Positions 1,409-17,700 of a stretch of 64,000 bases of DNA are shown here, one piece after another; within the stretch, counting starts at the first letter, position 1, and every line of letters starts with the position of its first letter. The stretch comes from Giardia intestinalis (lineage: Eukaryota): NCBI GenBank assembly GCA_000002435.2, contig CM018789.1; one strand, 5' to 3'. The position numbers were made by a program, and so were the translations under genes. Below the pieces are notes generated by a model. That model had not been told where the DNA came from and did not search any database. It was given only the letters and a program-made list of their open reading frames with translations.

Positions 1409-1415
1409 CTCTAAA

Positions 1416-3832
1416 TTAAAATATGTTTTTTCGACATTCTTCAAGAACAGACAAGACCTGAGACCTAACGCTTGGCTTGGGGGCAATGGAGCGTGCAGCC
1501 CAGTAGAAGACGTCCTTCTTTTTTGCAGTTAAAAGCTCTGCTTCATGAGGATAAAGTTTCCTCACTATATCTGAGTGTCCATGGTATGCAGCAAACATGA
1601 GTGCAGACCACCCGCTATCTGTCTGCATCCCTGCCTCCTGCTTAATGAGGAACTTCACCGCTATACTATTTCCTATGGCGGCTCCAATCATCAGCGCTGT
1701 GTAGCCCCCCACTGTCCGCTGTCCTGCCTGTGGTTGTGTCTTGAAGAACAGCGAATAGTTCCGAGTTGCTACTGAGTACATGAGCCGAGTAAAGTTCCAC
1801 TTCTCGTTTCCATAGTCCATGAGCGAAGAAACTATATCTTTTCGACCATATTGCGCAGCAAGAGCTAGTGCGCAAAGTCCGTGCTTCTTTTGCAGCCCAT
1901 GTTCTTTCTCAGCTAACAGCCGTGCGACATCGGCATGCCCATTTTCCACTGCAAACATCAGGGCACTCATTCCATGCTTAGTTTGGAGCCCTGCTTCAAC
2001 ATCTATTAATGCCTCAACTACTTCGACGAACCCTTGGTTTGCTGCTATCATCAATGCTGTTTCTCCGTTGCTTGTGACTAGCCCGCCCTCGTGTGGCAGC
2101 AAAAGCTGCACTACTTCATGTCTTCTGTACTGTGCGGCTAGCATCATGGCTGTTCTTCCTTCCTGATCCTGGAGTCCTGCTTCTTCTAACAGAAGCTTGC
2201 AGACATCTGTATGACCATACCGTGCTGCGATCATAAGTGCTGTTCTCCCCGTGCTTGTTCTGATGCCCCGCTCTATCAGGAGCATCTTAACATTGTCTAT
2301 TTCACCTGTGTATGCCGCGATCATCAGAGCCGTGCTCCCTGTGATCTGGCATTTACTCCGTCTATCTGTAGAATGAAACTCTAGCTGCTGTGTGTATATA
2401 TGCCCAAGAGTATCCAAGTAACCTATAAGGTCGTGTGCATTCCTATTACATACACTCATCATTAGCCTGGTTTGTTTGTCTACACGCTTGTGAAGGGGGG
2501 AAGAGAGGGTGATGGGGAGTTCATCAGCCGCTATTTTATGGCATAGCAGCGATAATATGAGGGTGTTTCCTCTGCGTAATGCCTCTTCAAAAATGCCAGA
2601 GTCTAGAGCGTCAATGTTGTCTAAAACCGTATCAATTTTCGAACATTGCACTGCATGCATAAGTCTTTCCCACGGGCTGCTTACGCAGTCTTTGTCCTCC
2701 AACAGTAACATACATTCATGTCGCCTCATTGTGCGAGCAATATCAAGTGCGCTCTTTCCTGTCTTTGTTCTCAGCCCTGCCTCGAACTCCAACAGCGCTT
2801 CCACACACTCGAAGTGATTGTTCTCCACAGCAAGCATTAGAGCGGTATACCCATCATTATCTTGCATCCGTGCCTCATGAGGAGCCAAAAGCCGAACAAA
2901 CTCTAACTTTCCGGCAGAGGATGCCAACATTAGGGCAGTCCTGCCATCCTCTGTTGTATGCCTCTTTTCTGTGGGCAGATACTTGGCCACTTCGTGCAGA
3001 CAATCCAGCAGGACACACTCCATCAGCGTCGTCCTTCCCTGGGGCATGTCGGGTTCTGAAAGAGTTTCTGAAGAATCTAAATTATGCTTTTCTGTAAATA
3101 GTGACGGAGGAACTATGGATGTGGGTTGACCAAATTGAAGATAAGAAAACACACACTGCAGGGTTTCAGGTGTATAAATAGACGATTCCGCCAGCACGGC
3201 TGCACGGCTGACGTACTCTGAAGTCTCACTGCATTGCAAAGTACATAGCTCAAGAAGAACAAGGCCAAGGCAATGCTTCAGAGATATGACATCTGTTAAA
3301 GGCGCTTCGGTCGCTATGCTCATAGATCTAGTCTCCAATCCCAACAGGAACAGAGGATCCAGTAAGACTGGCCCCTCCAGATTGTAATTAGAGATGATAT
3401 CTGCGGCACCAAACCTTACAGGAAGCTCAGAGAACTCCGCTAGATTGGAAGAGAGGTAGTCAATGGCCTTTTCAATGCTTTCTGCAACTCGAAGAACAAT
3501 TGCTTCACTAATGTGGGTACAAGCGTGCGCCTGGCTATTAAGAAGTACAGCTAGTTGTAGGGGAACGACGTTAAACTCTAAAAGAGCTTCAGAGTCCGAT
3601 AGGACAATTATCTTGTAGGCAAGTATGCTCGGGTGGCATAGTTTCTCGATTGCATGAATAAGTCGAGTGAAAGGTTTGGCAGATCTTCCCTCCAGTCTGG
3701 TAAAGTTTATGTGTCGGACAAAGACCTGCTCGTTGTGTTTTACAGAGAATGCGCGATATGTAACAATATCCCTACCTTCAAATATCACGAGACAGTCTCG
3801 ATAGTGGGTATTGATAAGAGAGTCAGACATTA
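1416..3832 (-). CDS. NEK-like degenerate pseudokinase domain fused to ankyrin repeats (Protein 21.1-type)
   Basis: ORF track 1416..3959 begins at GTG. The first ATG with an AT-rich initiator (ggaaaaaataaatcgaccttaATG) is at 3832 (MSDSLINTHYRD...). The N-terminal ~250 aa have kinase-like remnants (HPSILAYK, FGAAD, ...DVISLKHCLGLVLLEL) but no intact catalytic motifs. The C-terminal half is made of reiterated G(R/E)TALM(I/L)AA ankyrin repeats. Confidence 0.6.
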
Positions 3833-3840
3833 AGGTCGAT

Positions 3841-4491
3841 TTATTTTTTCCTTTCCCCTCCTGAGGACCGGAAACGGAGTGAGTTACGATAGGCCTTGCA
3901 GAAAGAGGAGATAGATCCATGCCATGTCCACGCATAGCATCTTTGTGGTCGGCACACACAGAGCCTTGTCTTGGATCCCTTCAGTCTAACAGACCGGGGA
4001 GTCTGATGAAGCCTTTCTTCTATGCGTGCAAGAACGTGACGCATATCATCTTCAGTCTTGTGAGTGAAAGTTATAACTCGCCGCTGGTCGAAATCTGCGA
4101 CTGCGTCCTCTGCAACCCCCATTATCTCGGCCTCGATGTTTTCTAGGATCTTTTTCGATGAATACCCACGCAAAACCAGTCGATCATACAGTTCCTCAGT
4201 GCCTAGACGCAGAAGAACGACGATGTCAAACCAGCGAATCGGGAAGCGTTCGCAGGAATGGTGGTCCACCAGGATGTTCTTATTCCTCTGGATGAGTACC
4301 TCAAGAGTGTCCAGAAGCCGCTCCTCATCCGGAACTACGGAGTTGAAGACTTCGTCGTAGCTCTCTATTAGTCCAGAGCTGTGGACAAGATCGCTTACAT
4401 TGACATATCTATAATCTGGATGGAGCTCCAAGAAGCGCTTAGCAAGGGTCGTCTTCCCAACCCCAGGGGTTCCTGTGACCAATATCCTCAT
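3841..4491 (-). CDS. AK6: adenylate kinase isoenzyme 6 (AK6 / Fap7 / hCINAP family) with ~50-aa C-terminal extension
   Basis: MRILVTGTPGVGKTTLAKRFLE is a P-loop, followed by YVNVSDLV...YDE, ILVDHHSCERFPIRWFDIVVLLR and LYDRLVLRGYSSKKILENIEAEI. These align residue-for-residue with human AK6 blocks (ILLTGTPGVGKTTLGK / YINVGDLA / [23 protein letters not shown] / [23 protein letters not shown]). The ORF-track start is TTG; the first ATG (MRIL) is at 4491. Confidence 0.8.
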   Translation of the reverse strand: MRILVTGTPGVGKTTLAKRFLELHPDYRYVNVSDLVHSSGLIESYDEVFNSVVPDEERLLDTLEVLIQRNKNILVDHHSCERFPIRWFDIVVLLRLGTEELYDRLVLRGYSSKKILENIEAEIMGVAEDAVADFDQRRVITFTHKTEDDMRHVLARIEERLHQTPRSVRLKGSKTRLCVCRPQRCYAWTWHGSISSFCKAYRNSLRFRSSGGERKK

Positions 4492-4522
4492 CGATGCTGA
4501 TAGTCTGTTTAGTCCCAACGCC

Positions 4523-4705
4523 TCAAAAGTAGCTTTTTCGAAAATGCCTCAACTGATCTCCGCGGACTCCGTCACAAACCTTGTCCAGTGTGCGATTTAC
4601 AGATAAATTGAGCCGGAAGTAAGAACGGAACACAAACCCCTGGCTTAAGAGAAACACGACCACCAAATAGGTAATCACACTTTCAGTCTTGTCACCTATG
4701 TACAT
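4523..4705 (-). CDS. possible small ORF (60 aa) with one hydrophobic segment, inside an unusually long intergenic gap
   Basis: ATG (complement of 4703-4705) with a moderately AT-rich upstream initiator (ccaaatatttacgc...ATG). Product: MYIGDKTESVITYLVVVFLLSQGFVF.... There is no homology support. It is retained only because the 525-bp gap 4492-5016 is atypically long for this genome. Confidence 0.15.
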   Translation of the reverse strand: MYIGDKTESVITYLVVVFLLSQGFVFRSYFRLNLSVNRTLDKVCDGVRGDQLRHFRKSYF

Positions 4706-5016
4706 GTCCGTGCGTAAATATTTGGTAAGGATTGCTTCACAAAACACCAACGCGTATCAAAGACAACGTCCTCGAATTGAATGATGATGCCACCCTGATG
4801 GACATTTTTTCGAGAAAAAACTACAGATGAGATCCAATAAGTATCACATACCAGCAACTATAGACGTGCACTGCAGGATATGCAACTTTTTATACTACCA
4901 GTTTGAAGTCTTCGAAGTGTGGCTTTTCTGCCATGCTTTCAGACCTCTGTAGGCCAATCTACCAATGAAAAGATGCTAACTGTGATTATGAGTCCCAACA
5001 ATATGCAACATAAATA

Positions 5017-5826
5017 CTACCAGATTGCCGTCTCAGTCAGAAATGGTGGGCCTTGGAAACTCCCTGCTCCATCCTCGTCACAAGAGGGTGCAATCATATG
5101 GCAACTAGTGGCCAGTATCGAGAGGGTGTGGAGCCTTGGGAGGAACTCAACGGCCATATCATGGACTTTCTCAACGAGATGAGAAGGAAGGTCATAAAGA
5201 ATCAGTCTCTGCAACGACTGATGAAGGAGTCGGAAGTCTGGAACAGTTGTCAAATAGGTCAGAGGGCCAATTGTAAGACTTACTACCTCGTCAAGTCGCT
5301 CTAAAAGATCTGCAAGCAACTTATTTGTAAATGGCTGAGACTCATTGTAAAGTTCCACAATCTGCTGTGGGTAGTCCATGTTGCCTACTGCCTGTTCGCC
5401 AGGCTTCTTCACGACTTGGAACTGTAGGTTTCGTAGAGCTTGCAGACATAATGTCTCCTCTTTCTTCTGTGTAAAAAGGATGTCCGGTATAGTTGCAAGC
5501 TTGTCGGACAGCTTGGCACTCATAGATCGTCGCTCTAGATAAGATACTGAAGGGTTGGTTGGGGTATGCAGGGCAGCGAGCGCTGAAAGAGACTCATACG
5601 GCTGAATATATTGCTGATACTTTTTTTTCAGCATAGAGGAGGCAGAGGTCGCTGATTTCGACAGTCCAAGTGCTCGAGAAACAGCTGCCCAGGAGAAGTT
5701 GGACGATTGGGTTTTCAGTTGTTGCACCGCGTGACAAAGAGACTCCACGGTCACAGAGACCCCTCCAATGGTCCACTGCACTCCAGGATTTTTCTGAACA
5801 CATAGCTCACATATATTGTTGTCCAT
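5017..5826 (-). CDS. hypothetical protein; N-terminus weakly resembles a single Myb/SANT-like helix-turn-helix
   Basis: 269-aa ORF with an ATG start at 5826 and an AT-rich initiator (ggtagtttttcaaaaggatATG). The N-terminal W...L..AV...NFSWAAVSRALGLSK spacing is Myb/SANT-like, but this is not diagnostic. Confidence 0.45.
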   Translation of the reverse strand: MDNNICELCVQKNPGVQWTIGGVSVTVESLCHAVQQLKTQSSNFSWAAVSRALGLSKSATSASSMLKKKYQQYIQPYESLSALAALHTPTNPSVSYLERRSMSAKLSDKLATIPDILFTQKKEETLCLQALRNLQFQVVKKPGEQAVGNMDYPQQIVELYNESQPFTNKLLADLLERLDEVVSLTIGPLTYLTTVPDFRLLHQSLQRLILYDLPSHLVEKVHDMAVEFLPRLHTLSILATSCHMIAPSCDEDGAGSFQGPPFLTETAIW

Positions 5827-5840
5827 ATCCTTTTGAAAAA

Positions 5841-6709
5841 CTACCGATTGTGTTTACATCTGTTTACAACTCTGCAGAGCCGACTGGGGGTTGCCGCATA
5901 TGCACCGTATGCTTCCCTGAGCATATATGTGTCGAACTCTGCCTCTGCTAGCTGGATGTTGAAGACACTCGTTGTCTTGTCGGTTGAGGTGCAACCATCT
6001 GCTCCCTTCTGCAGTTGACTGCACAGCTGGCACGTCCTTGCCACGTAGATGGCCTGGATGGTCTTCTCCGGCAGCGCTACTTGATAGATGAAGGGGTACT
6101 GCTCCAGCCTCCCGTTGTCTCCGTACCTAATTCTGCCGCGAACCGCCTCCTCGTCGACATGGAGCGCCAGCCTCCCGAAGTCCTCGAACGTCAGCTCTCG
6201 GATGCTGTGCCTTGGGTTGCAGAACGTGCTGCTGTCCGACAACAGCTTCACGGTTATCGCAGAGTATATCTCGGCCAGGCTGTGATACGACTTTACCCAG
6301 AGGTAGCCGAGGCTGCACACCGGCGCGAGGAGGGTGCTACACAGGAAAAGCGTCCCGGTGTCGTATCTGTGCATGATGTTTCCAAGGACCACCCCGTGGA
6401 GCATCATGTTGATGCACTCGTTGAGCGTCTGGAAGGAGAGAGAGGAGTCCTTCTGGCTCTTGTTCGCCATGAGTTCTCTGAAGTACCGCATCTTCTTGTC
6501 CTTGGCAGTCCTGTCGACGTAGAAGGACGCCTGGATGCAGGGCAGGTGGTGGTAGTAGCTGCATGTCACGAGGGCGAAGATGAACTCGCAGAGAAACAGC
6601 CTTACCCCTACAACATGATCCACTTTACCCCCTGATTGTTTCCAGTGTTGTGTTGTTAGGGCACGCCTATAGATGTGGTTCAAAGATTTTACAAATAGAC
6701 TTACTTCAT
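5841..6709 (-). CDS. hypothetical multi-pass membrane protein; candidate two-exon gene (exon 1 6705-6709 ATGAA; intron 6601-6704; exon 2 5841-6600)
   Basis: The minus-strand ORF (track 5841..6683, TTG start) has extreme GC3 bias (~85% G/C at codon position 3) from ~6600 down to the stop. This establishes the coding strand: the overlapping plus-strand ORF 6015..6635 has unbiased third positions. There is no in-frame ATG until 6491, although the GC3-biased, hydrophobic segment (KLFLCEFIFALVTCSYYHH...) begins at 6600. Upstream there is an AT-rich initiator plus ATGAA|GTAAGT...CCTAAC...GTAAG|GCTG. Splicing this way joins ATG in frame exactly where the GC3 bias starts, giving MKLFLCEFIFALVTC.... 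Confidence 0.4.
6601..6704 (-). other. candidate 104-nt spliceosomal intron (5' GTAAGT, internal CCTAACAACACAAC branch-like motif, 3' AG)
   Basis: Minus-strand sequence: GTAAGTCTATTTGTAAAATCTTTGAACCACATCTATAGGCGTGCCCTAACAACACAACACTGGAAACAATCAGGGGGTAAAGTGGATCATGTTGTAGGGGTAAG. Of the four AG dinucleotides downstream of the CTAAC motif, this is the only acceptor that keeps ATGAA in frame with the high-GC3 ORF. The canonical Giardia 3' motif ACTAACACACAG is only approximated, and it lies 54 nt from the proposed acceptor. Confidence 0.35.
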
Positions 6710-7009
6710 TTATAACTGTATTTAGAGATGGAGGTAGCTAGTGGTTATGAATGTAGAGCTTTTCTGACACCTTTGCTTATCAAATCTGGTGCGCTCTCTA
6801 AGAGACTTTTATATTTAACCAATACGCGCGCATCGGTTACCGCTCGACCGTAGCCCTCCTCCTCTTGCCCCCTGCGAGGACGCCGCCACTGGCTAGACGC
6901 GGGCGTCGTTGCTGCCCGGCCTTCTCGTGACCTCCTTCCTTCATGAGGTGTGCTCACCCCTCTCCGTCAGCACCACTCTCTGACGCATACACAGCTTGTC
7001 CATCCGGCC

Positions 7010-8230
7010 CTTGAGAAGAGCCACATCACACGAGGAAGGGCGCCGTTTACTCGAGGAGAGAGGCGATTGCGTCGTGGCCATGCCTCCTTGCGATGTCGAG
7101 GGCGGTGGTGCCGGGCGGGAAGCCGAGCCACTCACGGGTGGTCTGCATGCCTTTCTCCTTGTCCATCAGGAGCCTCGCACACTCCAGGTGACCACCCTGC
7201 GCTGCATGCATGAGCGCTGTCCATCCGTTGTTAGTCTTCATGCCGTCTTCTTTGTCTACTAGAAGCCTCACGCAGTCCGAGCAACCGTTGTCGGCTGCGT
7301 GCATGAGGGCAGTCCACCCACTGTTGGCCCTCATCCCGCCTTCCTTGTCCAGTAGAGCCTCCGCACACTCGCGGCGCCCATACTGTGCTGCATACATTAG
7401 GGCGGTCTTCCCATCATCCGTTTTCATGCCACCCTCCCTCTCCAGGAGGAGCTGCACGGACTCCAGTTTGCCGCGCCGTGCTGCGTACATAAGGGCGGTG
7501 GTGCCGTTGTTCCTCCGTTTGCCGCCTTCCCTCTTCAGCAGGAACTTCACGCATTCCGGGTGGCCCCCGTACGCCGCCCGCATGAGCGCGGTCTCTCCAA
7601 GCTTATTCTGTGTGCTACCTTTCATCTTCAGCAGAACCTTCACGGCTCTCAGGTTTCCATACTCTGCTGCTGACATGATGTCGGTCTCGACGAAGCCGTA
7701 TTTCAGCAACAAAAAAGACGAGAGACTCAGCCCGCTCCTCCCTTGTTGGTGGTAAAACTCTGCGGCTTCATCGATGCTCCTATCAGAAGCAGACCCCTCG
7801 GTGTCCTGAGGGCGACGACTCGCCTCCGAATCCCTGAGCACACCACTCGACATTTTTAACTTCGTCTGCTTGCAGGAAGACACTGCCACGGAAACACACA
7901 CTTTGCTCTCTGCTTCACTGAAAACGGTTTGTCAACTGCTGTCCGAGCATCTCCGTGAGAGCCGCCGCGCTGGGTGGGCCGCCCGCTCACCGTCCGGGGT
8001 CCAAGGTTCAGATCTTGAAGCTCGAACTCGTGCCCTCATACAAGGCCTCCTCCCCTGTGGGTAGGCGGGTCTCACGCTCGTTCACTTCTCCAATCCAGGA
8101 CTCAGAACTCGAAGCTTGAGCGTCGAATGTCATGATGATTTACTCCACCCACCGGTTGCTTCCAGTGGTGTGCTGCTGGGGCCTGCCTGCAGGTATGGTC
8201 CAGAGATCCCACGGGCAAGCTCTTGCTCAG
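7010..8230. repeat. left arm of perfect inverted repeat (palindrome); partner 11142..12352
   Basis: The reverse complement of 11142-12352 matches 7010-8230 base for base. The ORF-track proteins are identical: 7047..7901(-) = 11461..12315(+), 7210..7755(+) = 11607..12152(-), 7870..8064(+) = 11298..11492(-). The outer boundary is sharp, at cttgagaagag (7010) / ctcttctcaag (12352). Confidence 0.85.
7047..7853 (-). CDS. ankyrin-repeat protein (Protein 21.1 family), palindrome copy A
   Basis: ORF track 7047..7901 starts at GTG. The first ATG with an initiator (gaagttaaaaATG) is at 7853 (MSSGVLRDSEAS...). Five or six TALM-type ankyrin repeats (GETALMRAAYGGH, GTTALMYAARRG, GKTALMYAAQYG, GWTALMHAADNG, GWTALMHAAQGG). 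It is identical at the nucleotide level to copy B at 11509..12315. Confidence 0.7.
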   Translation of the reverse strand: MSSGVLRDSEASRRPQDTEGSASDRSIDEAAEFYHQQGRSGLSLSSFLLLKYGFVETDIMSAAEYGNLRAVKVLLKMKGSTQNKLGETALMRAAYGGHPECVKFLLKREGGKRRNNGTTALMYAARRGKLESVQLLLEREGGMKTDDGKTALMYAAQYGRRECAEALLDKEGGMRANSGWTALMHAADNGCSDCVRLLVDKEDGMKTNNGWTALMHAAQGGHLECARLLMDKEKGMQTTREWLGFPPGTTALDIARRHGHDAIASLLE

Positions 8231-8658
8231 TCCCTGACTAGTCCGGAGACGAGGGTTGGTCGTGTATCAATATAAGGACCACAGTGGTAGTAGGAGGAGC
8301 TATTGCGTTCCTCAGCTGTTCTACGGGCGTGTGCTCGGTCTAGGTGTGCACATAGGTCCTTTTGGAGATCAAGCCATCTCATGGACTCACTGGTCTACTA
8401 GGGTGCCTCTCCTTGCTCTCCCCTCACGGTGAGTGAAGCTCTGGTCTTTGTTGTCATTCTCAATACTGTCCATGTAGATCAGCAGCAGCTAGCGGGGCTT
8501 TCTCTTCTGGTTGGGATTCAACTCGGTTGTGTGTCCAGTCTTTGCACCTTCTCGGTCGTTGTCGACAGGTCCCAGGGGTGGATTCATTCAGCTGTCAGAA
8601 GTAGGATGACAGGAGACGGTCGCTCTGGGTGACCAGGCTTTCGGCCCGGCCCGTCTGA

Positions 8659-9474
8659 TCAGCTTCGTCGGGTGCTCGTTCGCCTCTGCAGCCATGTGGG
8701 CGATGGCGAAGGCAGCCCGGACAGAGAGCTTCTCAACGTCCACGTGGAGCTCCTCGAGGTGCCCCTTGGACTGGGGTGGAGGGATCCGTCTGTCCCGTAG
8801 ATGATCGGGAGCGTCCCGTCCCTGTACTTCTTGACCTTCTCGTTGTAGTAGGCATCCATCTGGCGGAGCTGGATGACACCCACATCTATCGCCTTGCACT
8901 TGTCGACAAGCCAGATGTCGGGCTTCTGGTTCTGGTCGCTGAGGTGGCTGTGGGTCTCGACTTCCAGTTCCGGTTGAGCTTCCCCGAGACGCGGAGGCAC
9001 AGGCACGCGACGATCATGTCGTGCCTCGTGGTCGAGGGTCCACGCCGTGTGGCAGCCCGGGCAGGTGCCTCTTGTCTGCGCCATGATCGAGCCGCCCTTC
9101 TCCTTCAGGGCCCTTTCCTCCTCGGTCAGCACGCCGCCGCTCTGTCCGGAAGCTGGTGTGCGCGTGAGGAGGCGGTTGAAGTAGGCCCCTTCCCCTGCAG
9201 TGCCTGGCCGTTCACCGGCAGCTCCACCGGGTCTCTGGTCCCCTTGTTGACGTCCAGGGAGGCCCATACCCTCCGCAGCTCGTCGTGGTAGGATCCAGGC
9301 ATGAGCAGGCCCAGGCCGCCCTTCTCCTTCGGGTACGCCAGGAAGTCGACCAGGCGATCGCAGCTTCTGTTGGTTAGTGCTGAAGCCTTGTGCGACGCGT
9401 CTGTTGAGCTCCTCGTAGTCCGCCTTGTCCGATGTTACTTCGACCAGGGGGGCGTAGCTCACCATCGGGACCAC
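8659..9474 (-). pseudogene. CCHC zinc-finger / REL-endonuclease-like C-terminal fragment of retroelement ORF
   Basis: CPGCHTAWTLDHEARHD, then KPDIWLVDKCKAIDVG and LPIIYGTDGS. The position 3' of the RT fragments is as in R2/GilM-type elements. Confidence 0.4.
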
Positions 9475-9604
9475 GCAGTGACATCAGGATGAGCTTCTGG
9501 TGGGTGGTTATGGGGGCGTTCTCAATCTTCCTCAGGGCAGTCACAGCACCTGCGATGACCTTTGGAGCTTGCAGGAGTGGGGGACGCCGGGTGGTTGAGG
9601 AAGG

Positions 9605-10039
9605 TCACCTCCTCGCCCGCCATGGTGGACTTGCATTGTCGCTCCTGATCGTCAGGCCCATGGCGGCAGCCTCTGCTGTGGCCAGCTGTGTTATCACACC
9701 TGCTGGGTACCCTTCGTCGTGGAACGCCACGATGTCGTCCGCTAGGCAAGGAAGGTGATGCCCCTCTCCCTGAGGCGTCTCAGGAGGCGCTCGATGGCCA
9801 TGCAGAAGAGGAGCGTGCTGAGCGGGCTGCCCTGGGGGACGCCACAGACCTCGCACTTCACGTCCCGGCTGTGCCTCAGATCGAGGAAGTTCCTGATGTA
9901 GTCGATCAGGACCTTCAGGATGCCCGCCTCGTTCAGGGCTCTGATGACCTCCGCCTTCGGGAGCGAGTTGAAGGCATTCTTTGTGTCGAGGGAGACGGCG
10001 TGCTCCTGTCCTGCTGATGAGCTCGTGGGCCCTCCTCAC
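9605..10039 (-). pseudogene. reverse-transcriptase fragment containing motif C (LADD)
   Basis: HHLPCLADDIVAFHDEGYPAGV matches the RT active-site xADD motif context. The surrounding sequence is degenerate. Confidence 0.4.
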
Positions 10040-10104
10040 ACCTACCGCGTACGCGTTCTGCTTGAAGGCGATCTGCTCGCATGAGAGGTAGTTGGCATGC
10101 TTGA

Positions 10105-10524
10105 TCAGCCCTTCAGCAGGACGCGGTGGAAGATGTTCGTGACCATCCGCCTATCGCGATCGGGGTATCCGTCGGACTCTTTCGGGATGAGGATCGCCCG
10201 GAACTCGAACATGGCCATCACGTCGGACATCGCCTCGGGGTGGGTGGTCAGCTCGTTGTACGCCTGCGTGAGGTACTTCACGAAGCTGTCGTTCTGCTTC
10301 ATCGCCTTGAGCTGGACCGGCCCGAGGCCAGACACGCCTGAGGCCTTCTTGTTGAGAGTCCTAACAGGGCCTTCCTCATTTCCTCCTCGGTTGCCGCTCC
10401 AGCCCGTCGAGCTCATCGATGGAGGGTAGTCAAGGCCAACGTAGCCTTCGGGGGGACGCACGGGTGTCTCATCAAGGGCGCGGAGAGCCTTAGCAACTGC
10501 TCCGAAGCTCAGCGCGTTGTTCAC
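10105..10524 (-). pseudogene. reverse-transcriptase N-terminal fragment (fingers/palm motifs 1-2), frameshifted
   Basis: ILIPKESDG...RRMV resembles the non-LTR RT IPK...RPI block. The ORF is truncated on both sides. Confidence 0.4.
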
Positions 10525-11508
10525 CCTGTTTGCTATCCGGCGTCTCGCCTTCTCGGGGTCTGGGTCTGCCTTACTCTGGGCCTGCTCTACTGTGTTGCTT
10601 GAGTCCTCTGGGGCTTCCCACCAGGGCGTTCAGGCCCCTGATAGCAGGGAGCGCGACCCCAGTCCCGGCCTGTTCGATGCTCGCGATCATGCGTGCCCCC
10701 TGGTGGATGAGCATAGCGAGCTCTGTCTGGTTCGGTACTGGGCCGGAATGATCAACTTGTCGTCGCCCAGCACTCTGTGTCTGTCATCGTTTGCTTCTCT
10801 CAGGTGCTCGGTTGGTTGCTTGGCGCTCTCGCACGGTAGGCCACAGAGCCAGCGTGTGTGTCCTGCTGAGAGAGTAAACGTCTTTGGAGTGGTCCCCCGA
10901 GTAGAGACTCACGGCTTGCTCTCTGGGTGTCCCTGAGGTACGATTTTGCATTCGTAGTGCAGATCTGGTCCTCGCGGGCTCTCCTTCGCCTCAGGTCCAG
11001 CTGTGCGCACGCCCACGGAACAGCCGAGGAACGCACAGACCCCAGATCCACAAACGGAGGGAGCTCCTCCTATCACCGTTGTGGCTATCGTTACGACCCG
11101 CGGCCAACCCTCATCTCCAGACTGGCCGGGAATTGAGCGAGGCTTGCCCGTGGGATCTCTGGACCATACCTGCAGGCAGGCCCCAGCAGCACACCACTGG
11201 AAGCAACCGGTGGGTGGAGTAAATCATCATGACATTCGACGCTCAAGCTTCGAGTTCTGAGTCCTGGATTGGAGAAGTGAACGAGCGTGAGACCCGCCTA
11301 CCCACAGGGGAGGAGGCCTTGTATGAGGGCACGAGTTCGAGCTTCAAGATCTGAACCTTGGACCCCGGACGGTGAGCGGGCGGCCCACCCAGCGCGGCGG
11401 CTCTCACGGAGATGCTCGGACAGCAGTTGACAAACCGTTTTCAGTGAAGCAGAGAGCAAAGTGTGTGTTTCCGTGGCAGTGTCTTCCTGCAAGCAGACGA
11501 AGTTAAAA

Positions 11509-12315
11509 ATGTCGAGTGGTGTGCTCAGGGATTCGGAGGCGAGTCGTCGCCCTCAGGACACCGAGGGGTCTGCTTCTGATAGGAGCATCGATGAAGCCGC
11601 AGAGTTTTACCACCAACAAGGGAGGAGCGGGCTGAGTCTCTCGTCTTTTTTGTTGCTGAAATACGGCTTCGTCGAGACCGACATCATGTCAGCAGCAGAG
11701 TATGGAAACCTGAGAGCCGTGAAGGTTCTGCTGAAGATGAAAGGTAGCACACAGAATAAGCTTGGAGAGACCGCGCTCATGCGGGCGGCGTACGGGGGCC
11801 ACCCGGAATGCGTGAAGTTCCTGCTGAAGAGGGAAGGCGGCAAACGGAGGAACAACGGCACCACCGCCCTTATGTACGCAGCACGGCGCGGCAAACTGGA
11901 GTCCGTGCAGCTCCTCCTGGAGAGGGAGGGTGGCATGAAAACGGATGATGGGAAGACCGCCCTAATGTATGCAGCACAGTATGGGCGCCGCGAGTGTGCG
12001 GAGGCTCTACTGGACAAGGAAGGCGGGATGAGGGCCAACAGTGGGTGGACTGCCCTCATGCACGCAGCCGACAACGGTTGCTCGGACTGCGTGAGGCTTC
12101 TAGTAGACAAAGAAGACGGCATGAAGACTAACAACGGATGGACAGCGCTCATGCATGCAGCGCAGGGTGGTCACCTGGAGTGTGCGAGGCTCCTGATGGA
12201 CAAGGAGAAAGGCATGCAGACCACCCGTGAGTGGCTCGGCTTCCCGCCCGGCACCACCGCCCTCGACATCGCAAGGAGGCATGGCCACGACGCAATCGCC
12301 TCTCTCCTCGAGTAA
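11509..12315 (+). CDS. ankyrin-repeat protein (Protein 21.1 family), palindrome copy B
   Basis: Identical to copy A. ATG at 11509 with gaagttaaaaATG. The stop TAA is embedded in the poly(A) signal AGTAAAC (12311-12317). Confidence 0.7.
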   Translation: MSSGVLRDSEASRRPQDTEGSASDRSIDEAAEFYHQQGRSGLSLSSFLLLKYGFVETDIMSAAEYGNLRAVKVLLKMKGSTQNKLGETALMRAAYGGHPECVKFLLKREGGKRRNNGTTALMYAARRGKLESVQLLLEREGGMKTDDGKTALMYAAQYGRRECAEALLDKEGGMRANSGWTALMHAADNGCSDCVRLLVDKEDGMKTNNGWTALMHAAQGGHLECARLLMDKEKGMQTTREWLGFPPGTTALDIARRHGHDAIASLLE

Positions 12316-12317
12316 AC
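12311..12317 (+). promoter_or_regulatory. poly(A) signal AGTAAAC (AGTRAAY consensus) overlapping stop codon of 21.1 copy B
   Basis: ctcgAGTAAACggc: the TAA stop sits inside the signal. The mirror copy gtttact lies at 7045-7051 for copy A. Confidence 0.5.
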
Positions 12318-12899
12318 GGCGCCCTTCCTCGTGTGATGTGGCTCTTCTCAAGAGGCAGAGAGAAAATGTCAGATAGGTGGGTTTGTGTGTGCCGGAAAGC
12401 AGTACAATGGAAATGGTAGCATATAGATATATGGAGATAGCGATATTATTAATGGAGTATGGCGGCAATGCAGAGAATGACGGTGAATACTGGTAATCCA
12501 TAGGTCAGATTCTTAAAGGCTGAAAATCTAAGAGCTCTACTAGGACTGCTTAGCATAGTAGTACGAAGCTCGGATAAGAAATTATAAAGTAATTGATAAG
12601 AGTATAGAAATGAAGATTTACAGACAAGAAGAATAAACTAACGTAATAGCAAATACTACAGGACCATAAGCTGAGTGTATAGCATCATTAAGCAACAGAG
12701 TTCTGTTGGAAGCCAAGTCTACGCCATCACTATAATTTAATCAAGTGTGCTGCTACACATTATAAAAGGAAAGGAGACCTTTGTAGAACCTCCATTATTA
12801 TCACAGCGATCATGACAGTGAGATATCAGGTATTCTAGATCCACAAAGACTCACCAGACGAGTTGAACCTTTGAATGAATGATTTGCAAACACAGACCT

Positions 12900-14060
12900 T
12901 TATAAACGTCTACTAAGGCAAAGAGGCTCTGATAAGAGCGGGTATGCGTCACAGAAGCCAATGCTCTGTGCATACTCCAAACAACTCATCACTCCTTTGC
13001 CATTCCACCGAGAAGCAATGTTACGCTCATCAGGCCTATGTAGTGAAAAGTTCTGGTAGTGAGCTTCGTTGTATGCAGATAACAATGTGACACAAGCCAC
13101 AGATTTCATTAGCGTCGCATAACAGAGCGCGTTGTTATCAAAAACATCATGCTTGCTCAATTCCAACGTGCGAAACTGTTCAGGGCAGTATCGTATCAAG
13201 GCCCGTATGGAGTCCACTTGATCTTTGCAGCAAGCTATCATTATTGCCGTCTGTCCTAATCCGTTCGTTTTACCGAGAAAGCCAGGAGCCATTTCTATAA
13301 GTCTAGCAATGTCCTTAGTAACTGCAGCGCGCATCCAGCGATCGAGATCTAGTGCGTCAGATAGATTCTTGGCATGAGGATCATTTTCTAAATCTTGAGA
13401 AATACTCTCGAGGATGTCTAGTGCAAACAGGTGGTCGATAAAAACAGTTTTTGTACGATCTGTGTTTCGGACATGCCTTTCCAGAACAAAGAACATTCCT
13501 GATTCGTAAGTAGACAAGAACAAGGCCACATCAAAGTGCCGTGCCTCAACGGCAAGCATCAGAGCCGTCTTCCCAGATACCCAGCTCGACGGTTTAGTTC
13601 CGGAGCATTTTATGTGTGCTTCGGAATGCATTTGCAGGCATGCTTCATAAGGAGCAAGGCTTCTCACTAGCTCCAAGAACCCTCCTTGCGCTGCTAGCAT
13701 GAGCGCAGACATTCCATTAGAGTCCTGAAGGCCCAGAAGACATCTTCCGGCGGCTCCTTCTTCTGTCATTGCCCAATTTAGAAGTGTGCTGGCTAGCAAT
13801 TCCTTCTTGGCGCGTAGTAAATACATTAGTGCGCTAGTTCCTCGAGGAAACTCTTCGCCACCAAGGAGAGAATCATCGGTACGGACGGAAAGGTCGAAAG
13901 CGGAGACTCCTGCGAGCAAGTCAGCAGGGGTGGACACTTCTTTAAGATATAGAAAGAGATCGTTTTCACTGGCTAGTGCATCCAAGTGCCCGGTAGCTGG
14001 TAGAGCTTGCGCTGCTATTGCCATGTCCAAACATTCCAGAAAGTCTTCTTTGTCCTCCAT
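12900..14060 (-). CDS. ankyrin-repeat protein (Protein 21.1 family)
   Basis: TALM-type repeats (GMSALMLAAQGG, GKTALMLAVEARH, GQTAIMIACCKD). Two candidate ATGs, at 14075 and 14060. I prefer 14060 (MEDKEDFLE...) because it has a textbook initiator ttggattttaaaATGg. Confidence 0.6.
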   Translation of the reverse strand: MEDKEDFLECLDMAIAAQALPATGHLDALASENDLFLYLKEVSTPADLLAGVSAFDLSVRTDDSLLGGEEFPRGTSALMYLLRAKKELLASTLLNWAMTEEGAAGRCLLGLQDSNGMSALMLAAQGGFLELVRSLAPYEACLQMHSEAHIKCSGTKPSSWVSGKTALMLAVEARHFDVALFLSTYESGMFFVLERHVRNTDRTKTVFIDHLFALDILESISQDLENDPHAKNLSDALDLDRWMRAAVTKDIARLIEMAPGFLGKTNGLGQTAIMIACCKDQVDSIRALIRYCPEQFRTLELSKHDVFDNNALCYATLMKSVACVTLLSAYNEAHYQNFSLHRPDERNIASRWNGKGVMSCLEYAQSIGFCDAYPLLSEPLCLSRRL

Positions 14061-14073
14061 TTTAAAATCCAAC
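14061..14073. promoter_or_regulatory. 13-bp AT-rich spacer (tttaaaatccaac) between divergent start codons; shared/bidirectional initiator region
   Basis: The minus-strand gene ATG is at 14058-14060 and the plus-strand gene ATG at 14074-14076. An AT-rich element sits immediately upstream of both. Confidence 0.4.
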
Positions 14074-14583
14074 ATGCAGACACACTCAGTGGGATTTTCC
14101 TACCAGAATGACCCGTACAGCCTTTCCTCCCGCGCTCTAGCAACCAAAGCGGTAGCAACAATGGATGTTCCCGGTCAGCACCGAAAGCTCGCTGTCCCAG
14201 AACCCATAGATCTGGCGTCTGTAGACGAATGGGTAACTGTCTATGGGATTACTCCATCCAATCTTTCGCTGGCTCTTCACGCCCTTATGAACTTTGGGAC
14301 CATTATGAGGGTCAATTACGCCAATCACCATTTTATTCATGTCCGTTTCAGAGACGCCCTCTCCGCACAAGCCGCGGTTTCTGCGAGAGTAATCTGTCTC
14401 AGCAAGATCTCCATCATCGGCCTTATCCCCTGTCTTGTTAAGGACTTAGACAACGACATAACACTTTGTCACGAGCTTGACCTACCTCCTTATGTGTTGA
14501 CAAAAAAGACGCCCCCAGTGGTCAGTAATGGAATACTCGAGCGGATAATAAATTGGTTTGCGACGCTTCTTAAATCTGATTAA
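14074..14583 (+). CDS. Nup35/Nup53-type RRM (MPPN) domain mini-protein
   Basis: Only the 3' part of ORF 13786..14583 is credible; its 5' part is antisense to the 21.1 gene. WVTVYGITPSNLSLALHALMNFGTIMRVNYANHHFIHVRFRDALSAQAAVSARVICLSKISIIGLIPCLVKDLDND aligns with the human NUP35 RRM ([74 protein letters not shown]). Conserved positions include W-V-T-V-x-G, F..G.I, H(I/V)R(Y/F), A..A.S and IG(V/L)xPC. The start could alternatively be the ATG at 14161. Confidence 0.55.
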   Translation: MQTHSVGFSYQNDPYSLSSRALATKAVATMDVPGQHRKLAVPEPIDLASVDEWVTVYGITPSNLSLALHALMNFGTIMRVNYANHHFIHVRFRDALSAQAAVSARVICLSKISIIGLIPCLVKDLDNDITLCHELDLPPYVLTKKTPPVVSNGILERIINWFATLLKSD

Positions 14584-14748
14584 ATTGGGCCATTTATTTG
14601 CTACCTGCTCACACTATCTGCTTGTACTCAGCTAACGTACTCAACTAACGTATTCAGTTGATTGCTGTATGATCAGTGATGCGAAAGAGTTGGATTACAT
14701 GCCCGTCATGCTCATAGCGGAACATCAGATTTGGAGATTAAAAAACTA

Positions 14749-17700
14749 ATGCGTGCGAAGTCACTGTCACATCACAAACGGCCTGTTTCTGTGTTGAGCA
14801 CTCGAAGTGTGTCGCGCGCACCTCGCAGATTAGTGCGGGGCAGAGATCGCGATCCAAATCAAGATTACGTTCGATCCTTGGTGGCCAATCTCGAGTGCAA
14901 GAATCCTCTCGAGCTGACCACGGCGATTCGAGAGCTAACAGATATTTATGTGTCTAACAAGTATTCAGAGGTCTTTTTCTCCCGCGACGTGCCTACTAAA
15001 GTCTTTAAAGCAACCCTCCAAAACAGTCACAACGCTAAGATATTTGCTCTTGGGAAAACGTTTTTAAAATGCTTCATGGAGTCTTGCGCCTCGCAGTCTT
15101 CTTATATATTTGCGAACCTCAGTATTGATTCTAAAGAATATAGTAGAACCAAGTGTCTAGATTCTCTTCTCAATTACATTATTTCACAGCTCAGTGATAG
15201 TGAAATGTTATATAGTATTTATTTCTATGTGCTTGTGGGGGACATAATCTCAACACATCACGCTTGTGTGCCATTCGTGCACACACTATCACCAATTCAC
15301 TTCATTCAGGTGTATCTCAACAAGGTGTGTAACAACCTCGATATGTGCTCGCAGACAACCAACTCTCTCTCCATTGTGCAGTTGAATCAAATACATAGGG
15401 GCCGCGGCAATGCCAAGGACGGTGACACCAGCGATGGTAACGAATCGACCAACTCCGGGATGACAGTAGCCTCCAGTCTTTCTCTCGACGAGGATTGCAC
15501 TATGCCTACGGTTTGTAAGCAGTTGGATGATGCGCTATCGGAGATCTCGTCAGCACGGAGCATTCTCTCTAACTTTGCTGAGACGGTGTTTAGTAATTCT
15601 GTTCCAGGACAAAAAAGAAAACTGCGAAAAGAGACCGCCTCATATGGCAAGCTTCCTTTGATTAATACTGTTCGCTCGGAGGGTAGCAGTATGGTGTCCG
15701 ACCGCTCATCCATCGAAATTAACAACAGTCAGCACTTGGACTCTGATGATAACGAGGAAGAAAGTGGCTATTATTCTCAGTCTAACAATGGTGACTCTAA
15801 TACCAACTTAAATAGTGACAGATCAAGAGACTTTGGCGAGGATTTGTTCGACGAAAACGATAGGGAGGAGCGACAACCCACTCCACTTGACCACCAAGAA
15901 TCAGCAGTCTTTGTCTCACCACGTACCTGCAATCAAGAACCTAGTCTACACGGCACACAGGCATCCACTGAATTGGCTAAAGACTTACAAAAACAAAGTC
16001 ATGCAGGAGTGAAAGAGCCATCTCAAGATGTGAATATAAGAAATCACTCAAGGTCTTCTTGCAGCAGAAGCAGCGCGTCATTTTGTGAGAAGGATCGCTT
16101 GCTAGAGCTCCCAGCGCTAGGTGATTGCATTCCTGAGATCCCACAACCAGAGCATAAGGATGAGAGCGTCAGGGGACGACCACCTGTCACGAGAGGAGTC
16201 AAGGTCAGACTCCCCCCTATGGTGCATGACCAACGGAATACCTCGAAAGAAACTGGAGCTTACGACCCATTACTAAATGACGCGCTTACCCAGGAATCAT
16301 CTGCGTCTGCGATTCTAACGCCATTTAACTTGGGAACTATATCGGAGGCCAAAGTCTCGTCTGCCGAGCTACAGATGGTGCAAGGAGAAGAGGCTCAATC
16401 CGTCCTAGGCTCTGCAGTCCCCGTTCTTAACCTTCACTTGCCGTTAGCTGTCAATCCTGAACGAGATCCTGTTAATGAGAGCTCGTCTCCTGCACGGCAA
16501 GTGCTCACAACCGCGCGGCGACAGTCTAGGTATATGATTCACAGCACTCAAGCTGGTAAGGGGCGAACGAATGCTGTTGCCTATGGGCAAGCTTCACACA
16601 ACAGAGCCGTCGCTCCTGGGGTCAAGAATCGCTCCTCCTCAAACCTCCTCATCCCGCCTTCCACACCAAATGGAACTCTTTCTAACATCGGGGAGCCATT
16701 TTCTGGAGCAGCTCGTCAATTTTACCCGCAAAAGGACAAGTCTGCTGACTTTACACATGCGGAGCAAATTGAGAAGGTCGAAAGACGTGCAATCTGTGGC
16801 CCATTGGCTTTGGCATCTAAAACGAAACCTTGCAGGCCCTCTATCGTTCCGCTTCTATCACTGAGTTGTCCAGCTCAACAAGAGAAAGACCCTCCTGAAA
16901 TTACCACCCAATCAACACCAAAGCTTTCTCAACAAAAGTTTCCCGGTCTCAGTCTAGGATTATCCTTAGATTTGAAGTCTGTTCACAATCGGGAGAGTAC
17001 AGCACCTTCTATGAGTCATCGAGGACATCCAGGACGATTCGGTGACACAGATTCTCCTGCCACTGGTCAGTCCTACACCGGACTTAATCAGGAGACGGCC
17101 GATTTTGTGTTTGATAAGTATCTTCAGGTTCTTTCTGAACGGCGGAAGGGAATTCCGGAACTCGTGGATGTTGCTAACCGTATTGGCGAGTATACCTTTA
17201 TGCGGGACTATCCCCTGCTATGTTCTCTCAGTCGCGATAAAACCTATTCACACGGGTCCGCGAACTTAACAGCGCGTTCCACACACAGTAGCCTTTCAGT
17301 GTTGACTACATCTACTTCCCAAGCTGTTCAGGCGAATTACATCGTCAATCACCTCTATGTAACCCATAACTATTACACTTATTTAAAGGAACACAAAAGA
17401 CGATACCTTCTCTACAAGCTATTTGGTTCCACTCATACCAGGGATTTGTCTGACTATGAATTTAACTTCTCTATTATGTCAACCGAGCTTTTGCCCCTGG
17501 TGCGTCTTCAGAGAGTGGATCTATCTAGGGAGGATGTCATTCGCCTCGGTGTTAGCTATATTCTCTACCACTGCATCAGGAACCTTTCAAATATAACGCT
17601 GAGGTACTTCCCCAATATCCTGCCAAGCATATGCACAGACCTTATTTCACTGCATCAGCGTAAGACTGGCTTCATACCTGCAGTGGTTCTAGCGTTGTCA

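What the first reader, a model, noticed from the sequence alone, without database searches (positions are those of the whole stretch)
7010..12352. 5.3-kb palindrome: two 100%-identical inverted 1.2-kb arms, each with a complete 21.1 ankyrin gene, bracketing a dead retroelement
Arms 7010-8230 and 11142-12352 are exact reverse complements. The outer boundaries are sharp. The inner ends continue as a diverged, indel-containing inverted similarity for ~200 bp more. The centre is a GC-rich, frameshifted non-LTR retrotransposon remnant. Perfect arm identity next to a decayed centre implies recent arm-to-arm homogenisation (gene conversion) or a very recent inverted duplication. Alternatively it is an assembly artefact, since long palindromes are hard to assemble. 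Either way the locus duplicates a protein-coding gene in head-to-head orientation around a mobile-element relic, which is a classic substrate for hairpin/cruciform formation and rearrangement.
Basis: seen in the sequence. Interest (0 to 1): 0.8.

Follow-up and report, generated by a model that had tools for sequence, protein, structure and literature searches.

The report
Identical inverted ankyrin genes around dead retroelement
This is a real 5.3-kb palindrome in a Giardia chromosome: two identical copies of an ankyrin-repeat gene point away from a dead retrotransposon that has its own inverted ends, an arrangement already described for Giardia surface-antigen (VSP) genes and seen here with a different gene.

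Summary
The arms 7010-8220 and 11142-12352 are exact reverse complements (1211 bp, no mismatch) and form the only long repeat in the 64-kb window. Each arm carries an intact 268-aa ankyrin-only gene, and the two genes lie head-to-head.

The centre is a full-length but dead GilD/Genie-2-type non-LTR retroelement (8139-11223, minus strand). It is not a truncated relic. It has its own imperfect terminal inverted repeats (TIRs) of about 200 bp. The perfect arms begin 82 bp inside these TIRs.

An assembly artefact is unlikely. Independent short-read contigs stop exactly 30 nt (k-1) inside the right arm, the spacer is asymmetric, and other copies of the element show the same design.

An isolate 0.62% diverged from the window has the same arm boundary and shares two variants there. 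Ongoing arm-to-arm gene conversion therefore fits better than a single very recent duplication.

The architecture is published: identical inverted VSP pairs (Adam 2010) and a dead RT (psiRT) between divergent VSP pairs (Xu 2020). This locus is a new member of a known kind, with ankyrin cargo.

A decayed solo TIR copy sits at a gene-truncating synteny breakpoint on the left flank that differs between isolates.

Interest is moderate to low.

The parts
5841..6616 (-). C-terminal ~258 codons of a gene that is 642 aa long in other assemblage-A isolates. It is truncated here at a synteny breakpoint at about 6609-6616.
   Evidence: Contigs L006 and L007 are 99.97% identical to window 1-6616. They then continue into the rest of a 642-aa ORF, a 1459-aa gene and VPS13, none of which occurs in the window. 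L008 and 19 similar contigs follow the window through the breakpoint as far as 6901.
6615..6760 (+). Solo, heavily decayed copy of the outer end of the retroelement's terminal inverted repeat. It has the same orientation as the left TIR and starts at the synteny breakpoint.
   Evidence: 6615-6687 matches 8135-8207 at 72.6%. The alignment extends to about 6760, with z=17-20 against shuffles. Over 86 ungapped nt there are 26 transitions and 3 transversions, and 21 of the 26 transitions are C>T or G>A.
7010..8220 (.). Left perfect arm (1211 bp): 1129 bp of non-element DNA that includes the ankyrin gene, plus the outer 82 bp of the element's TIR.
   Evidence: arm identity; element boundary at 8139.
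7047..7853 (-). Ankyrin-repeat-only gene, copy 1 (268 aa plus stop), of the Protein 21.1 / ARP-1 type.
   Evidence: Pfam Ank_2 1.9e-51 and Ank 7.7e-41, with no kinase domain. The nearest proteins are Giardia ankyrin / Protein 21.1 entries at 39-48% identity.
8139..11223 (-). Dead GilD/Genie-2-type non-LTR retroelement, a full family-length unit of 3085 bp. Its 5' end is on the right and its 3' end on the left.
   Evidence: It is 84-85% nt identical end to end with three ~3.1-kb copies in the Giardia DH assembly (L010, L011, L012). The conceptual translation is 62% identical to DHA2_154256 at E=3.7e-194.
8139..8334 (+). Terminal inverted repeat at the element's 3' end. The outer 82 bp lie inside the perfect arm and the inner ~115 bp are diverged.
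8587..10391 (-). Reverse transcriptase / CCHC / restriction-enzyme-like endonuclease pseudo-ORF, broken by frameshifts and stop codons.
   Evidence: The six-frame view shows the motifs AVSLDTKNAF, GVPQGSPLS, LADDIVAF, CPGCH and KPDIW...IDVGV. RVT_1 scores E=1.4e-18. tblastn shows the frame changes. Group II intron and retron-type RTs give weak PDB hits.
11005..11223 (-). Terminal inverted repeat at the element's 5' end. The outer 82 bp lie inside the perfect arm and the inner ~137 bp are diverged.
11142..12352 (.). Right perfect arm (1211 bp), the exact reverse complement of the left arm.
   Evidence: Short-read contigs L001 and L002, plus 19 contigs similar to L002, end at 12323, which is 30 nt inside the arm.
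11509..12315 (+). Ankyrin-repeat-only gene, copy 2, identical to copy 1.

Best explanation
This is a genuine Giardia 'identical inverted gene pair', built on a dead GilD/Genie-2-type non-LTR retroelement.

Shown:
- The element is a 3.1-kb unit that carries imperfect terminal inverted repeats (TIRs) of about 200 bp.
- The 1211-bp perfect arms begin 82 bp inside those TIRs and run 1129 bp outward.
- Each arm therefore holds the 285-bp upstream region, the complete ankyrin gene and 37 bp of 3' flank.

Inferred origin: a break or collapsed replication fork at the element allowed a 3' end in one TIR to pair with the other TIR in inverted orientation. The end was rejoined non-homologously at the sharp outer boundary.

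Maintenance, supported indirectly: the arms have since been kept identical by intrachromosomal arm-to-arm gene conversion. The strongly diverged inner part of the TIRs acts as a barrier that fixes the inner boundary.

Consequences: two copies of one ankyrin gene in divergent orientation, and a recombination-prone locus.
For: Palindrome:
- The arms are perfect and form the only long repeat in the window.

Element and TIRs:
- The element limits 8139/11223 come from end-to-end homology with three other copies and from the TIR alignment.
- A 'naked' copy between ordinary genes (L011) has just a 170-nt, 98% identical TIR. The TIR is therefore part of the element and the long arms are an add-on.
- L012, from the independent DH assembly, has a psiRT flanked by inverted arms of at least 890 bp that reach a VSP gene pointing toward the centre. 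The arms thus copy whatever lies next door, in either orientation.

Real rather than artefact:
- Short-read contigs from other runs match the window 100% (L002, L008).
- L002 plus 19 similar contigs end at 12323, exactly k-1 = 30 nt inside the right arm. That is expected for a sequence present in two contexts.
- The spacer is asymmetric.

Conversion:
- L001 (SRR3177919, genotype 'Ay' in PMC9618722) differs from the window at 73 of 11,753 positions. It ends at the same position and carries two variants within the last 30 nt of the arm.
- The boundary therefore predates the split, and both arms in that isolate share the variants.
- Without conversion about 7.5 arm-to-arm differences are expected. 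None is observed, P=5e-4.

Literature:
- 14 identical inverted VSP pairs, with 2190-3847 bp between the ORFs and abrupt divergence points (PMC2996952).
- A psiRT lies between 4 of the 7 '<- ->' VSP pairs (PMC7000408).
- GilD elements lie next to VSP genes (PMC2861651).
Against: - No read-level data were available. Perfect identity could be partly a product of consensus polishing of multi-mapping reads.
- The concerted-evolution argument rests on where one contig ends and on two variants in 30 nt.
- Neither the arm gene nor the centre's ORFs exist anywhere in the protein collection, although both flanking genes occur in more than 120 short-read assemblies. The inner junctions and the left outer junction therefore have no independent support.
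- Left-side contigs stop at 6901, 109 nt before the arm, for no identified reason.
- Most published identical VSP pairs are tail-to-tail and no psiRT is listed between them. A retroelement TIR cannot be the only seed for such palindromes.
- The template-switch step is inference. No informative microhomology was seen at the outer junction.
Confidence: 0.62

Rival explanations
1. A single, very recent inverted duplication with no ongoing gene conversion. The arms are identical only because too little time has passed for them to diverge.
For: There are no differences in 1211 bp, and the step to the diverged sequence is razor-sharp at both ends. One template-switch event explains both boundaries. 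Adam et al. also regarded identical VSP pairs as possibly recent duplications (PMC2996952).
Against: A lineage 0.62% diverged from the window (L001) ends at the identical k-1 position and carries its own variants in the arm end. The duplication is therefore older than that split. About 7.5 arm-to-arm differences would then be expected, P(0)=5e-4. L012 shows that older, partly diverged arms (99->86%) do exist elsewhere, so perfect identity is not automatic.
Confidence: 0.22
2. An assembly or polishing artefact. Either the true locus has one arm (a chimeric or fold-back join), or the arms are real but not strictly identical and were homogenised by consensus polishing.
For: Palindromes are hard to assemble. 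Identical VSP pairs prematurely terminated contigs in the Sanger assembly (PMC2996952). No independent contig covering the arm interior or the centre could be retrieved.
Against: Missed-adapter fold-back artefacts lack a spacer, or have only adapter sequence there. Here the spacer is an asymmetric 2.9-kb element that has homologues elsewhere. Both unique flanks are confirmed at 100% identity by independent short-read contigs, and about 20 contigs break exactly k-1 nt inside the right arm. The same design occurs in an independent 454 assembly (L012). It also occurs in published Sanger and PacBio analyses.
Confidence: 0.08
3. The ankyrin gene and the TIRs belong to one composite mobile unit, a foldback-like element that moves or amplifies as DNA and carries the gene as cargo.
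For: The unit has terminal inverted repeats. A solo TIR fragment lies at a rearrangement breakpoint. The naked copy L011 has no target-site duplication.
Against: Other copies of the element carry no ankyrin gene. Their flanks differ: ordinary genes in L011, a NEK kinase in L010, VSP in L012. The ankyrin protein has no close relative anywhere, best hit 48%, so it has not been spread. From memory of Arkhipova & Morrison 2001, which is not in the library, no transposase is known in Giardia.
Confidence: 0.03

Closest known systems
Identical inverted VSP gene pairs of Giardia WB (Adam et al. 2010, PMC2996952; Xu et al. 2020, PMC7000408)
   Same: Two identical ORFs in inverted orientation. The ORFs are 3655 bp apart here, against the published 2190-3847 bp. 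The flanks are identical up to an abrupt divergence point. Here the genes lie head-to-head with a dead RT between them, as in 4 of the 7 published '<- ->' VSP pairs. Contigs break at such loci.
   Different: The cargo is an ankyrin-only (21.1/ARP-1) gene, not a VSP. The 3' identity ends only 37 nt after the stop codon, against the published 141-559 nt.
GilD (Arkhipova & Morrison 2001) = Genie 2 (Burke, Malik, Rich & Eickbush 2002), the dead non-LTR family of Giardia
   Same: Only degenerate, frameshifted copies are seen. The ORF combines RT, a CCHC motif and a C-terminal restriction-enzyme-like endonuclease. Copies sit at internal chromosomal sites next to multigene families (PMC2861651). As I recall from Burke et al., every copy has inverted repeats of up to ~172 bp; here L011 has 170 nt.
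   Different: No labelled GilD/Genie 2 reference sequence was available, so the assignment is by properties only. The finding that perfect host-gene arms start inside the element's inverted repeat comes from my own analysis. I could not check whether it is already published.
Ampliconic palindromes of the human Y chromosome (P1-P8)
   Same: Long inverted arms carrying genes, a unique spacer, and near-perfect arm identity maintained by arm-to-arm gene conversion (established knowledge).
   Different: The Y palindromes are a thousand-fold larger. No transposon with its own inverted ends defines their inner boundary. They occur in a different biological setting (testis genes on a non-recombining chromosome).
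Rearrangements mediated by inverted repeats through template switching or break-induced replication (for example DUP-TRP/INV-DUP, fold-back inversions)
   Same: The proposed origin is the same: one homology-driven switch inside an inverted repeat, followed by one non-homologous rejoining. This gives one junction inside the repeat and one sharp junction in unique DNA.
   Different: This is a resemblance in mechanism only. Nothing about the actual event was observed here.

Membership tests
GilD / Genie 2 non-LTR retroelement | Non-LTR-type reverse transcriptase domain | tested here: met
   The frameshift-corrected translation scores RVT_1 at E=1.4e-18 and 67.8 bits, above the cut-off of 29.6. 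It is 62% identical to a Giardia RT-domain protein at E=3.7e-194.
GilD / Genie 2 non-LTR retroelement | C-terminal CCHC motif plus restriction-enzyme-like endonuclease, with no AP endonuclease | tested here: inconclusive
   The motifs CPGCH...H and KPDIW...IDVGV...K are visible in the translation. One homologue is named 'Reverse transcriptase/endonuclease' (P0008). No profile for this domain matched.
GilD / Genie 2 non-LTR retroelement | Only dead copies, with frameshifts, stops and deletions | tested here: met
   Three reading frames and several stop codons are needed to cover the RT. Copies are 84-91% identical to one another.
GilD / Genie 2 non-LTR retroelement | Inverted repeats at the element ends, up to ~172 bp (recalled from Burke et al. 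2002; paper not in the library) | tested here: met
   TIRs are present in all four copies examined (window, L010, L011, L012). L011 has 170 nt at 98%.
GilD / Genie 2 non-LTR retroelement | Sequence identity to the named reference element | not testable with these tools
   No labelled GilD/Genie 2 sequence is held, and the two defining papers are not in the library.
Giardia identical inverted gene pair | Two identical ORFs in inverted orientation, 2-4 kb apart | tested here: met
   The ORFs are identical and 3655 bp apart. The published range is 2190-3847 bp.
Giardia identical inverted gene pair | Flanks identical up to an abrupt divergence point | tested here: met
   Identity ends 367 nt upstream of the ATG and 37 nt beyond the stop codon. 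It then drops to chance level outside the arms and to ~75% inside.
Giardia identical inverted gene pair | The cargo is a VSP gene | tested here: not met
   The cargo has ankyrin repeats only, with no VSP domain. This locus extends the published architecture to another gene family.
Protein 21.1 / ARP-1 ankyrin family | Ankyrin repeats with no kinase or other domain | tested here: met
   Only ankyrin-repeat Pfam families match. The naming rule is given in PMC7000408. The nearest named hits are 'Protein 21.1' and 'Ankyrin repeat protein' at 39-48% identity.
Conversion-maintained palindrome (Y-chromosome type) | The arms evolve in concert: they stay identical within a genome while differing between lineages | tested here: inconclusive
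   Only the outermost 30 nt of one arm in one diverged isolate (L001) could be examined. It shows the same boundary, two variants and a k-mer branch point.

The most novel reading that the evidence does not exclude
The inverted ends of a dead retroelement act as nucleation sites for palindromes that grow outward and are then kept identical by gene conversion. This duplicates whatever gene lies next door: VSP in either orientation, or ankyrin as here. An extinct transposon family would then still shape the copy number and rearrangement of Giardia's most dynamic gene families. The solo TIR at an isolate-polymorphic, gene-truncating breakpoint would be a by-product of the same instability. A further speculative layer rests on the fact that Giardia promoters are bidirectional (the title of PMC1885649, listed): the two head-to-head promoters could drive convergent transcription across the element and yield double-stranded RNA.
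Probability: 0.3. Interest if true: 0.6.

Novelty: new member of a known kind. Interest (0 to 1): 0.35.

Why it matters
This locus shows that the identical-inverted-pair architecture, known for Giardia's antigenic-variation (VSP) genes, is not specific to VSPs. It also gives that architecture a concrete anatomical anchor: the inner end of the perfect arms lies inside the retroelement's own inverted repeat.

If that anchor holds across the genome, the origin of these pairs can be tested with existing long-read assemblies. So can the fragility of the loci, since the left flank here truncates a gene in some isolates but not in others.

In practice, the two ankyrin copies cannot be told apart by short reads, and the spacer may exist in both orientations. 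Expression, knock-out and variant-calling work at this locus has to allow for that.

Tried and rejected
- Exact-protein look-ups found nothing. I tried the arm gene (268-aa ATG form and 284-aa GTG form), its 181-aa antisense ORF and a centre ORF.
- The homologue search with the ankyrin protein found nothing closer than 48% identity. No independent contig of the arm interior or the centre could therefore be fetched.
- Pfam on the individual centre ORFs gave nothing. Only the frameshift-corrected concatenation hit RVT_1.
- Rfam at a permissive threshold over 6000-13000 gave no RNA family, so the TIR terminus is not a known RNA gene.
- The defining papers (Arkhipova & Morrison 2001; Burke et al. 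2002) are not held. Statements from them are from memory and marked as such.
- I looked for a mirror-image solo TIR in the right flank (12353-12899) and for any other TIR-like piece in the window. There is none.
- I tested whether 6761-7009 is decayed element body. It is not, z<2.5.
- I looked for a repeated k-mer that would explain why left-side contigs stop at 6901. None occurs in the held data.
- I looked for a target-site duplication around the naked copy L011. There is none.
- I tried to infer which arm was the donor from 5'-type versus 3'-type TIR differences. The outer 82 nt carry no type-specific sites.
- The reading 'truncated relic' was rejected. All four copies are ~3.1 kb long.


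Full report

A base-by-base walk along the register i+j=19362 finds one perfect run, 7010-8220 against 11142-12352. It is 1211 bp long with no mismatch. The repeat finder reports 6996-8220/11142-12366 because it extends through mismatches.

In the 100 nt outside the arms, in-register identity is 31-33%, which is chance level. Nothing else in the 64-kb window is repeated at this scale.

Each arm carries an intact ORF: minus strand 7853->7047 and plus strand 11509->12315.
- The product is 268 aa from the ATG and matches only ankyrin-repeat Pfam families (Ank_2 1.9e-51).
- TTAAAAATG precedes the ATG and AGTAAAC overlaps the stop codon. From my own knowledge these are the usual Giardia initiator and poly(A) motifs.
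- The genes point away from the centre, so they lie head-to-head.
- The nearest proteins are Giardia 'Protein 21.1' and 'Ankyrin repeat protein' entries at 39-48% identity.

The organism is Giardia duodenalis assemblage A. The flanking genes are found with 100% DNA identity in many short-read assemblies, and the protein hits carry Giardia names.

**2. What is the centre?**

The centre is GC-rich, 0.59-0.67. Its minus strand shows reverse-transcriptase motifs spread over three reading frames: AVSLDTKNAF, GVPQGSPLS and LADDIVAF. These are followed by a CPGCH motif and a KPDIW...IDVGV motif.
- The separate ORFs hit nothing in Pfam.
- The frameshift-corrected concatenation scores RVT_1 at E=1.4e-18.
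- The same translation is 62% identical to the Giardia RT-domain protein DHA2_154256 at E=3.7e-194. It also hits a WB protein named 'Reverse transcriptase/endonuclease'.
- tblastn confirms at least three frame changes.

At the DNA level the window matches three other copies in the Giardia DH assembly (L010, L011, L012) end to end, at 84-85% identity. The match covers window 8139-11223. All four copies are about 3.1 kb long, and the DH copies are 88-91% identical to one another.

The centre is therefore a full-length unit of a dead family, not a truncated remnant. Its outermost 82 bp on each side lie inside the perfect arms.

**3. The element has its own inverted ends.**

The copy in L011 sits between ordinary genes. 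Its only inverted repeat is 170 nt at 98%, plus 34 nt at 79%, at its two termini. A multiple alignment shows the same terminus, (G)TTTACTCCACCCACCGGTTGCTTCC..., at both ends of every copy.

In the window these terminal inverted repeats (TIRs) are 8139-8334 and 11005-11223. Their outer 82 bp are perfect. Their inner 115-137 bp are about 75% identical in aligned blocks and contain four indels.

These properties fit the dead third Giardia retrotransposon family, GilD, also called Genie 2:
- only dead copies;
- RT with a C-terminal endonuclease-like region;
- internal chromosomal sites next to multigene families;
- inverted repeats of about 170 bp.

A held paper states that GilD copies lie next to VSP genes (PMC2861651). 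The inverted-repeat property is from my memory of Burke et al. 2002, which is not in the library. No labelled reference sequence was available.

**4. Real structure or artefact?**

Evidence that it is real:
- Independent short-read (Logan) contigs match both unique flanks at 100% identity: L008 over 1-6901 and L002 over 12323-24075.
- L002, 19 similar contigs and L001 all end at 12323, exactly 30 nt inside the right arm. From my own knowledge those assemblies use k=31. A sequence present in two different contexts would break contigs at exactly this point.
- The spacer is asymmetric and has homologues elsewhere, unlike a missed-adapter fold-back artefact.
- An independent 454 assembly shows the same design. 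L012 has a psiRT flanked by inverted arms of at least 890 bp that reach a VSP gene ending in CRGKA* and pointing toward the centre.

Weaknesses:
- I could not retrieve any independent contig of the arm interior or of the centre. None of their ORFs is in the protein collection. I cannot explain this.
- Left-side contigs stop at 6901, 109 nt short of the arm, for no reason I could find.
- Polishing could have erased a few real differences between the arms.

**5. Conversion or recent duplication?**

L001 comes from SRR3177919, an assemblage-A genotype assignable to none of AI, AII or AIII and labelled 'Ay' in PMC9618722. It differs from the window at 73 of 11,753 positions, or 0.62%. Its contig still ends at the identical position, and it carries two substitutions within the last 30 nt of the arm.

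The branch point shows that the terminal 31-mer, including those variants, occurs in two contexts in that isolate. So the arm boundary predates the split, and both arms there share the variants.

If the arms had diverged freely since the split, about 7.5 differences would be expected in 1211 bp. None is observed, P=5e-4. This favours ongoing arm-to-arm gene conversion. The evidence is thin: one isolate and 30 nt.

L012 shows that such arms can drift. Its arm identity falls from 99% through 97% and 95% to 86% toward the centre.

**6. How it probably arose (inference).**

The perfect tract has one end inside an inverted repeat (8220/11142) and the other in unique DNA (7010/12352). A homology-driven template switch or strand invasion between the two TIRs would leave exactly this pattern. 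Synthesis would then run outward through the neighbouring gene, and the end would be rejoined non-homologously.

Afterwards, the strongly diverged inner TIR would block heteroduplex extension and so fix the inner boundary.

One hint bears on which arm is the copy. L013 comes from a distant assemblage, where the ortholog of the 391-aa neighbour is 61% identical. There, GATGATTTACTCCACC... (the TIR terminus) begins 87 nt after that gene's stop codon, with no ankyrin arm in between (z about 10). The right arm may therefore be the derived copy. The contig ends 150 nt further on, so this is only suggestive.

**7. Rearrangement at the left flank.**

- 6615-~6760 is a third, solo copy of the TIR outer end.
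- It starts at the point (about 6609-6616) where two other assemblage-A assemblies leave the window. These are L006 and L007, which are 99.97% identical up to that point.
- Those contigs continue into the remainder of a 642-aa gene, then a 1459-aa gene and VPS13.
- The window, and about 20 short-read contigs identical to it, retain only the last ~258 codons of that gene.
- The locus is therefore next to a gene-truncating structural difference between very close isolates.
- The solo TIR differs from the arm TIR by 26 transitions and 3 transversions, and 21 of the transitions are C>T or G>A. I cannot explain this bias.

**8. Comparison with what is known.**

Adam et al. 2010 (PMC2996952) described 14 pairs of identical VSP genes in head-to-head or tail-to-tail orientation. 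The ORFs were 2190-3847 bp apart. The flanks were nearly identical up to abrupt divergence points 139-729 bp away. Contigs terminated at these pairs.

Xu et al. 2020 (PMC7000408) list 19 duplicated VSP pairs in the PacBio reference. Of the 7 '<- ->' pairs, 4 have a psiRT between them, with gene distances of 3242-6264 bp.

The present locus has a gene distance of 3655 bp and 5' identity extending 367 nt. It has the same architecture with an ankyrin-only gene as cargo.

Neither paper, as far as I read it, mentions two points from this analysis. One is that the perfect arms begin inside the retroelement's own inverted repeat. The other is that naked copies carry only that repeat. I could not check whether Burke et al. 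or Arkhipova & Morrison already say so.

Most published identical pairs are tail-to-tail with no psiRT listed, so the element cannot be the only seed for such palindromes.

**9. Verdict.**

The feature is a new member of a known kind. Interest is moderate to low (0.35). It is a clean, well-bounded example that makes the origin of Giardia's identical inverted pairs testable, but it would not surprise a Giardia genomicist.

Noticed in passing
window 6615-6760: A solo, decayed copy of the retroelement's TIR outer end. It differs from the arm copy (8135-8220) by 26 transitions and 3 transversions. Of the transitions, 21 are C>T or G>A, and GC content falls from 60% to 41%. The pattern looks like deamination or RIP, and I know of no Giardia mechanism for it.
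   Followed up: partly
window 5841-6616; L006 8058-9986: The window keeps only the last ~258 codons of a gene that is an intact 642-aa ORF in two other assemblage-A short-read assemblies (SRR10063833, SRR10063826; 99.97% identical up to the breakpoint). In those contigs the gene is followed by a 1459-aa gene and VPS13. None of this sequence is in the window. This is a structural polymorphism between very close isolates, and it abuts the solo TIR.
   Followed up: partly
L013 11239-11390 (ERR3333381, distant assemblage): The TIR terminus GATGATTTACTCCACC... begins 87 nt after the stop codon of the ortholog of the window's 391-aa ankyrin gene (12900-14075), with no ankyrin arm in between. This hints that the element is old at this locus and that the right arm was added later. 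The contig ends 150 nt further on.
   Followed up: partly
window 7010-12352: No ORF of the arms or the centre exists in the 5.8-billion-protein collection, in any form. The best hits are 48% (arm gene) and 62% (centre). Both flanking genes, by contrast, occur in 126-167 short-read assembly blocks. Left-side contigs also stop at 6901, 109 nt before the arm, with no repeated k-mer to explain it.
   Followed up: yes
L011 8545-11673: A 'naked' copy of the same dead element lies between ordinary genes in the DH assembly. Its 170-nt TIRs are 98% identical although the element body is degenerate. Its 5' TIR carries the sequence variant seen at the 3' TIR of the window copy. This suggests TIR-to-TIR conversion even without host-gene arms. 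It has no target-site duplication.
   Followed up: partly
L012 1-4773: A palindrome in the DH assembly is centred on the same kind of dead element, but with VSP genes tail-to-tail (CRGKA* pointing toward the centre). Arm identity falls from 99% at the outside to 86% in the TIR. The contig ends inside the arms.
   Followed up: partly
L011/L012 TIR outer 85 nt: The outer 85 nt of the TIRs are 97-100% identical between two different DH loci whose element bodies are only 91% identical. The window's TIR outer part is more diverged from them (76-78%) than its body is (84-85%). The rates are uneven, which could reflect conversion between loci.
   Followed up: no
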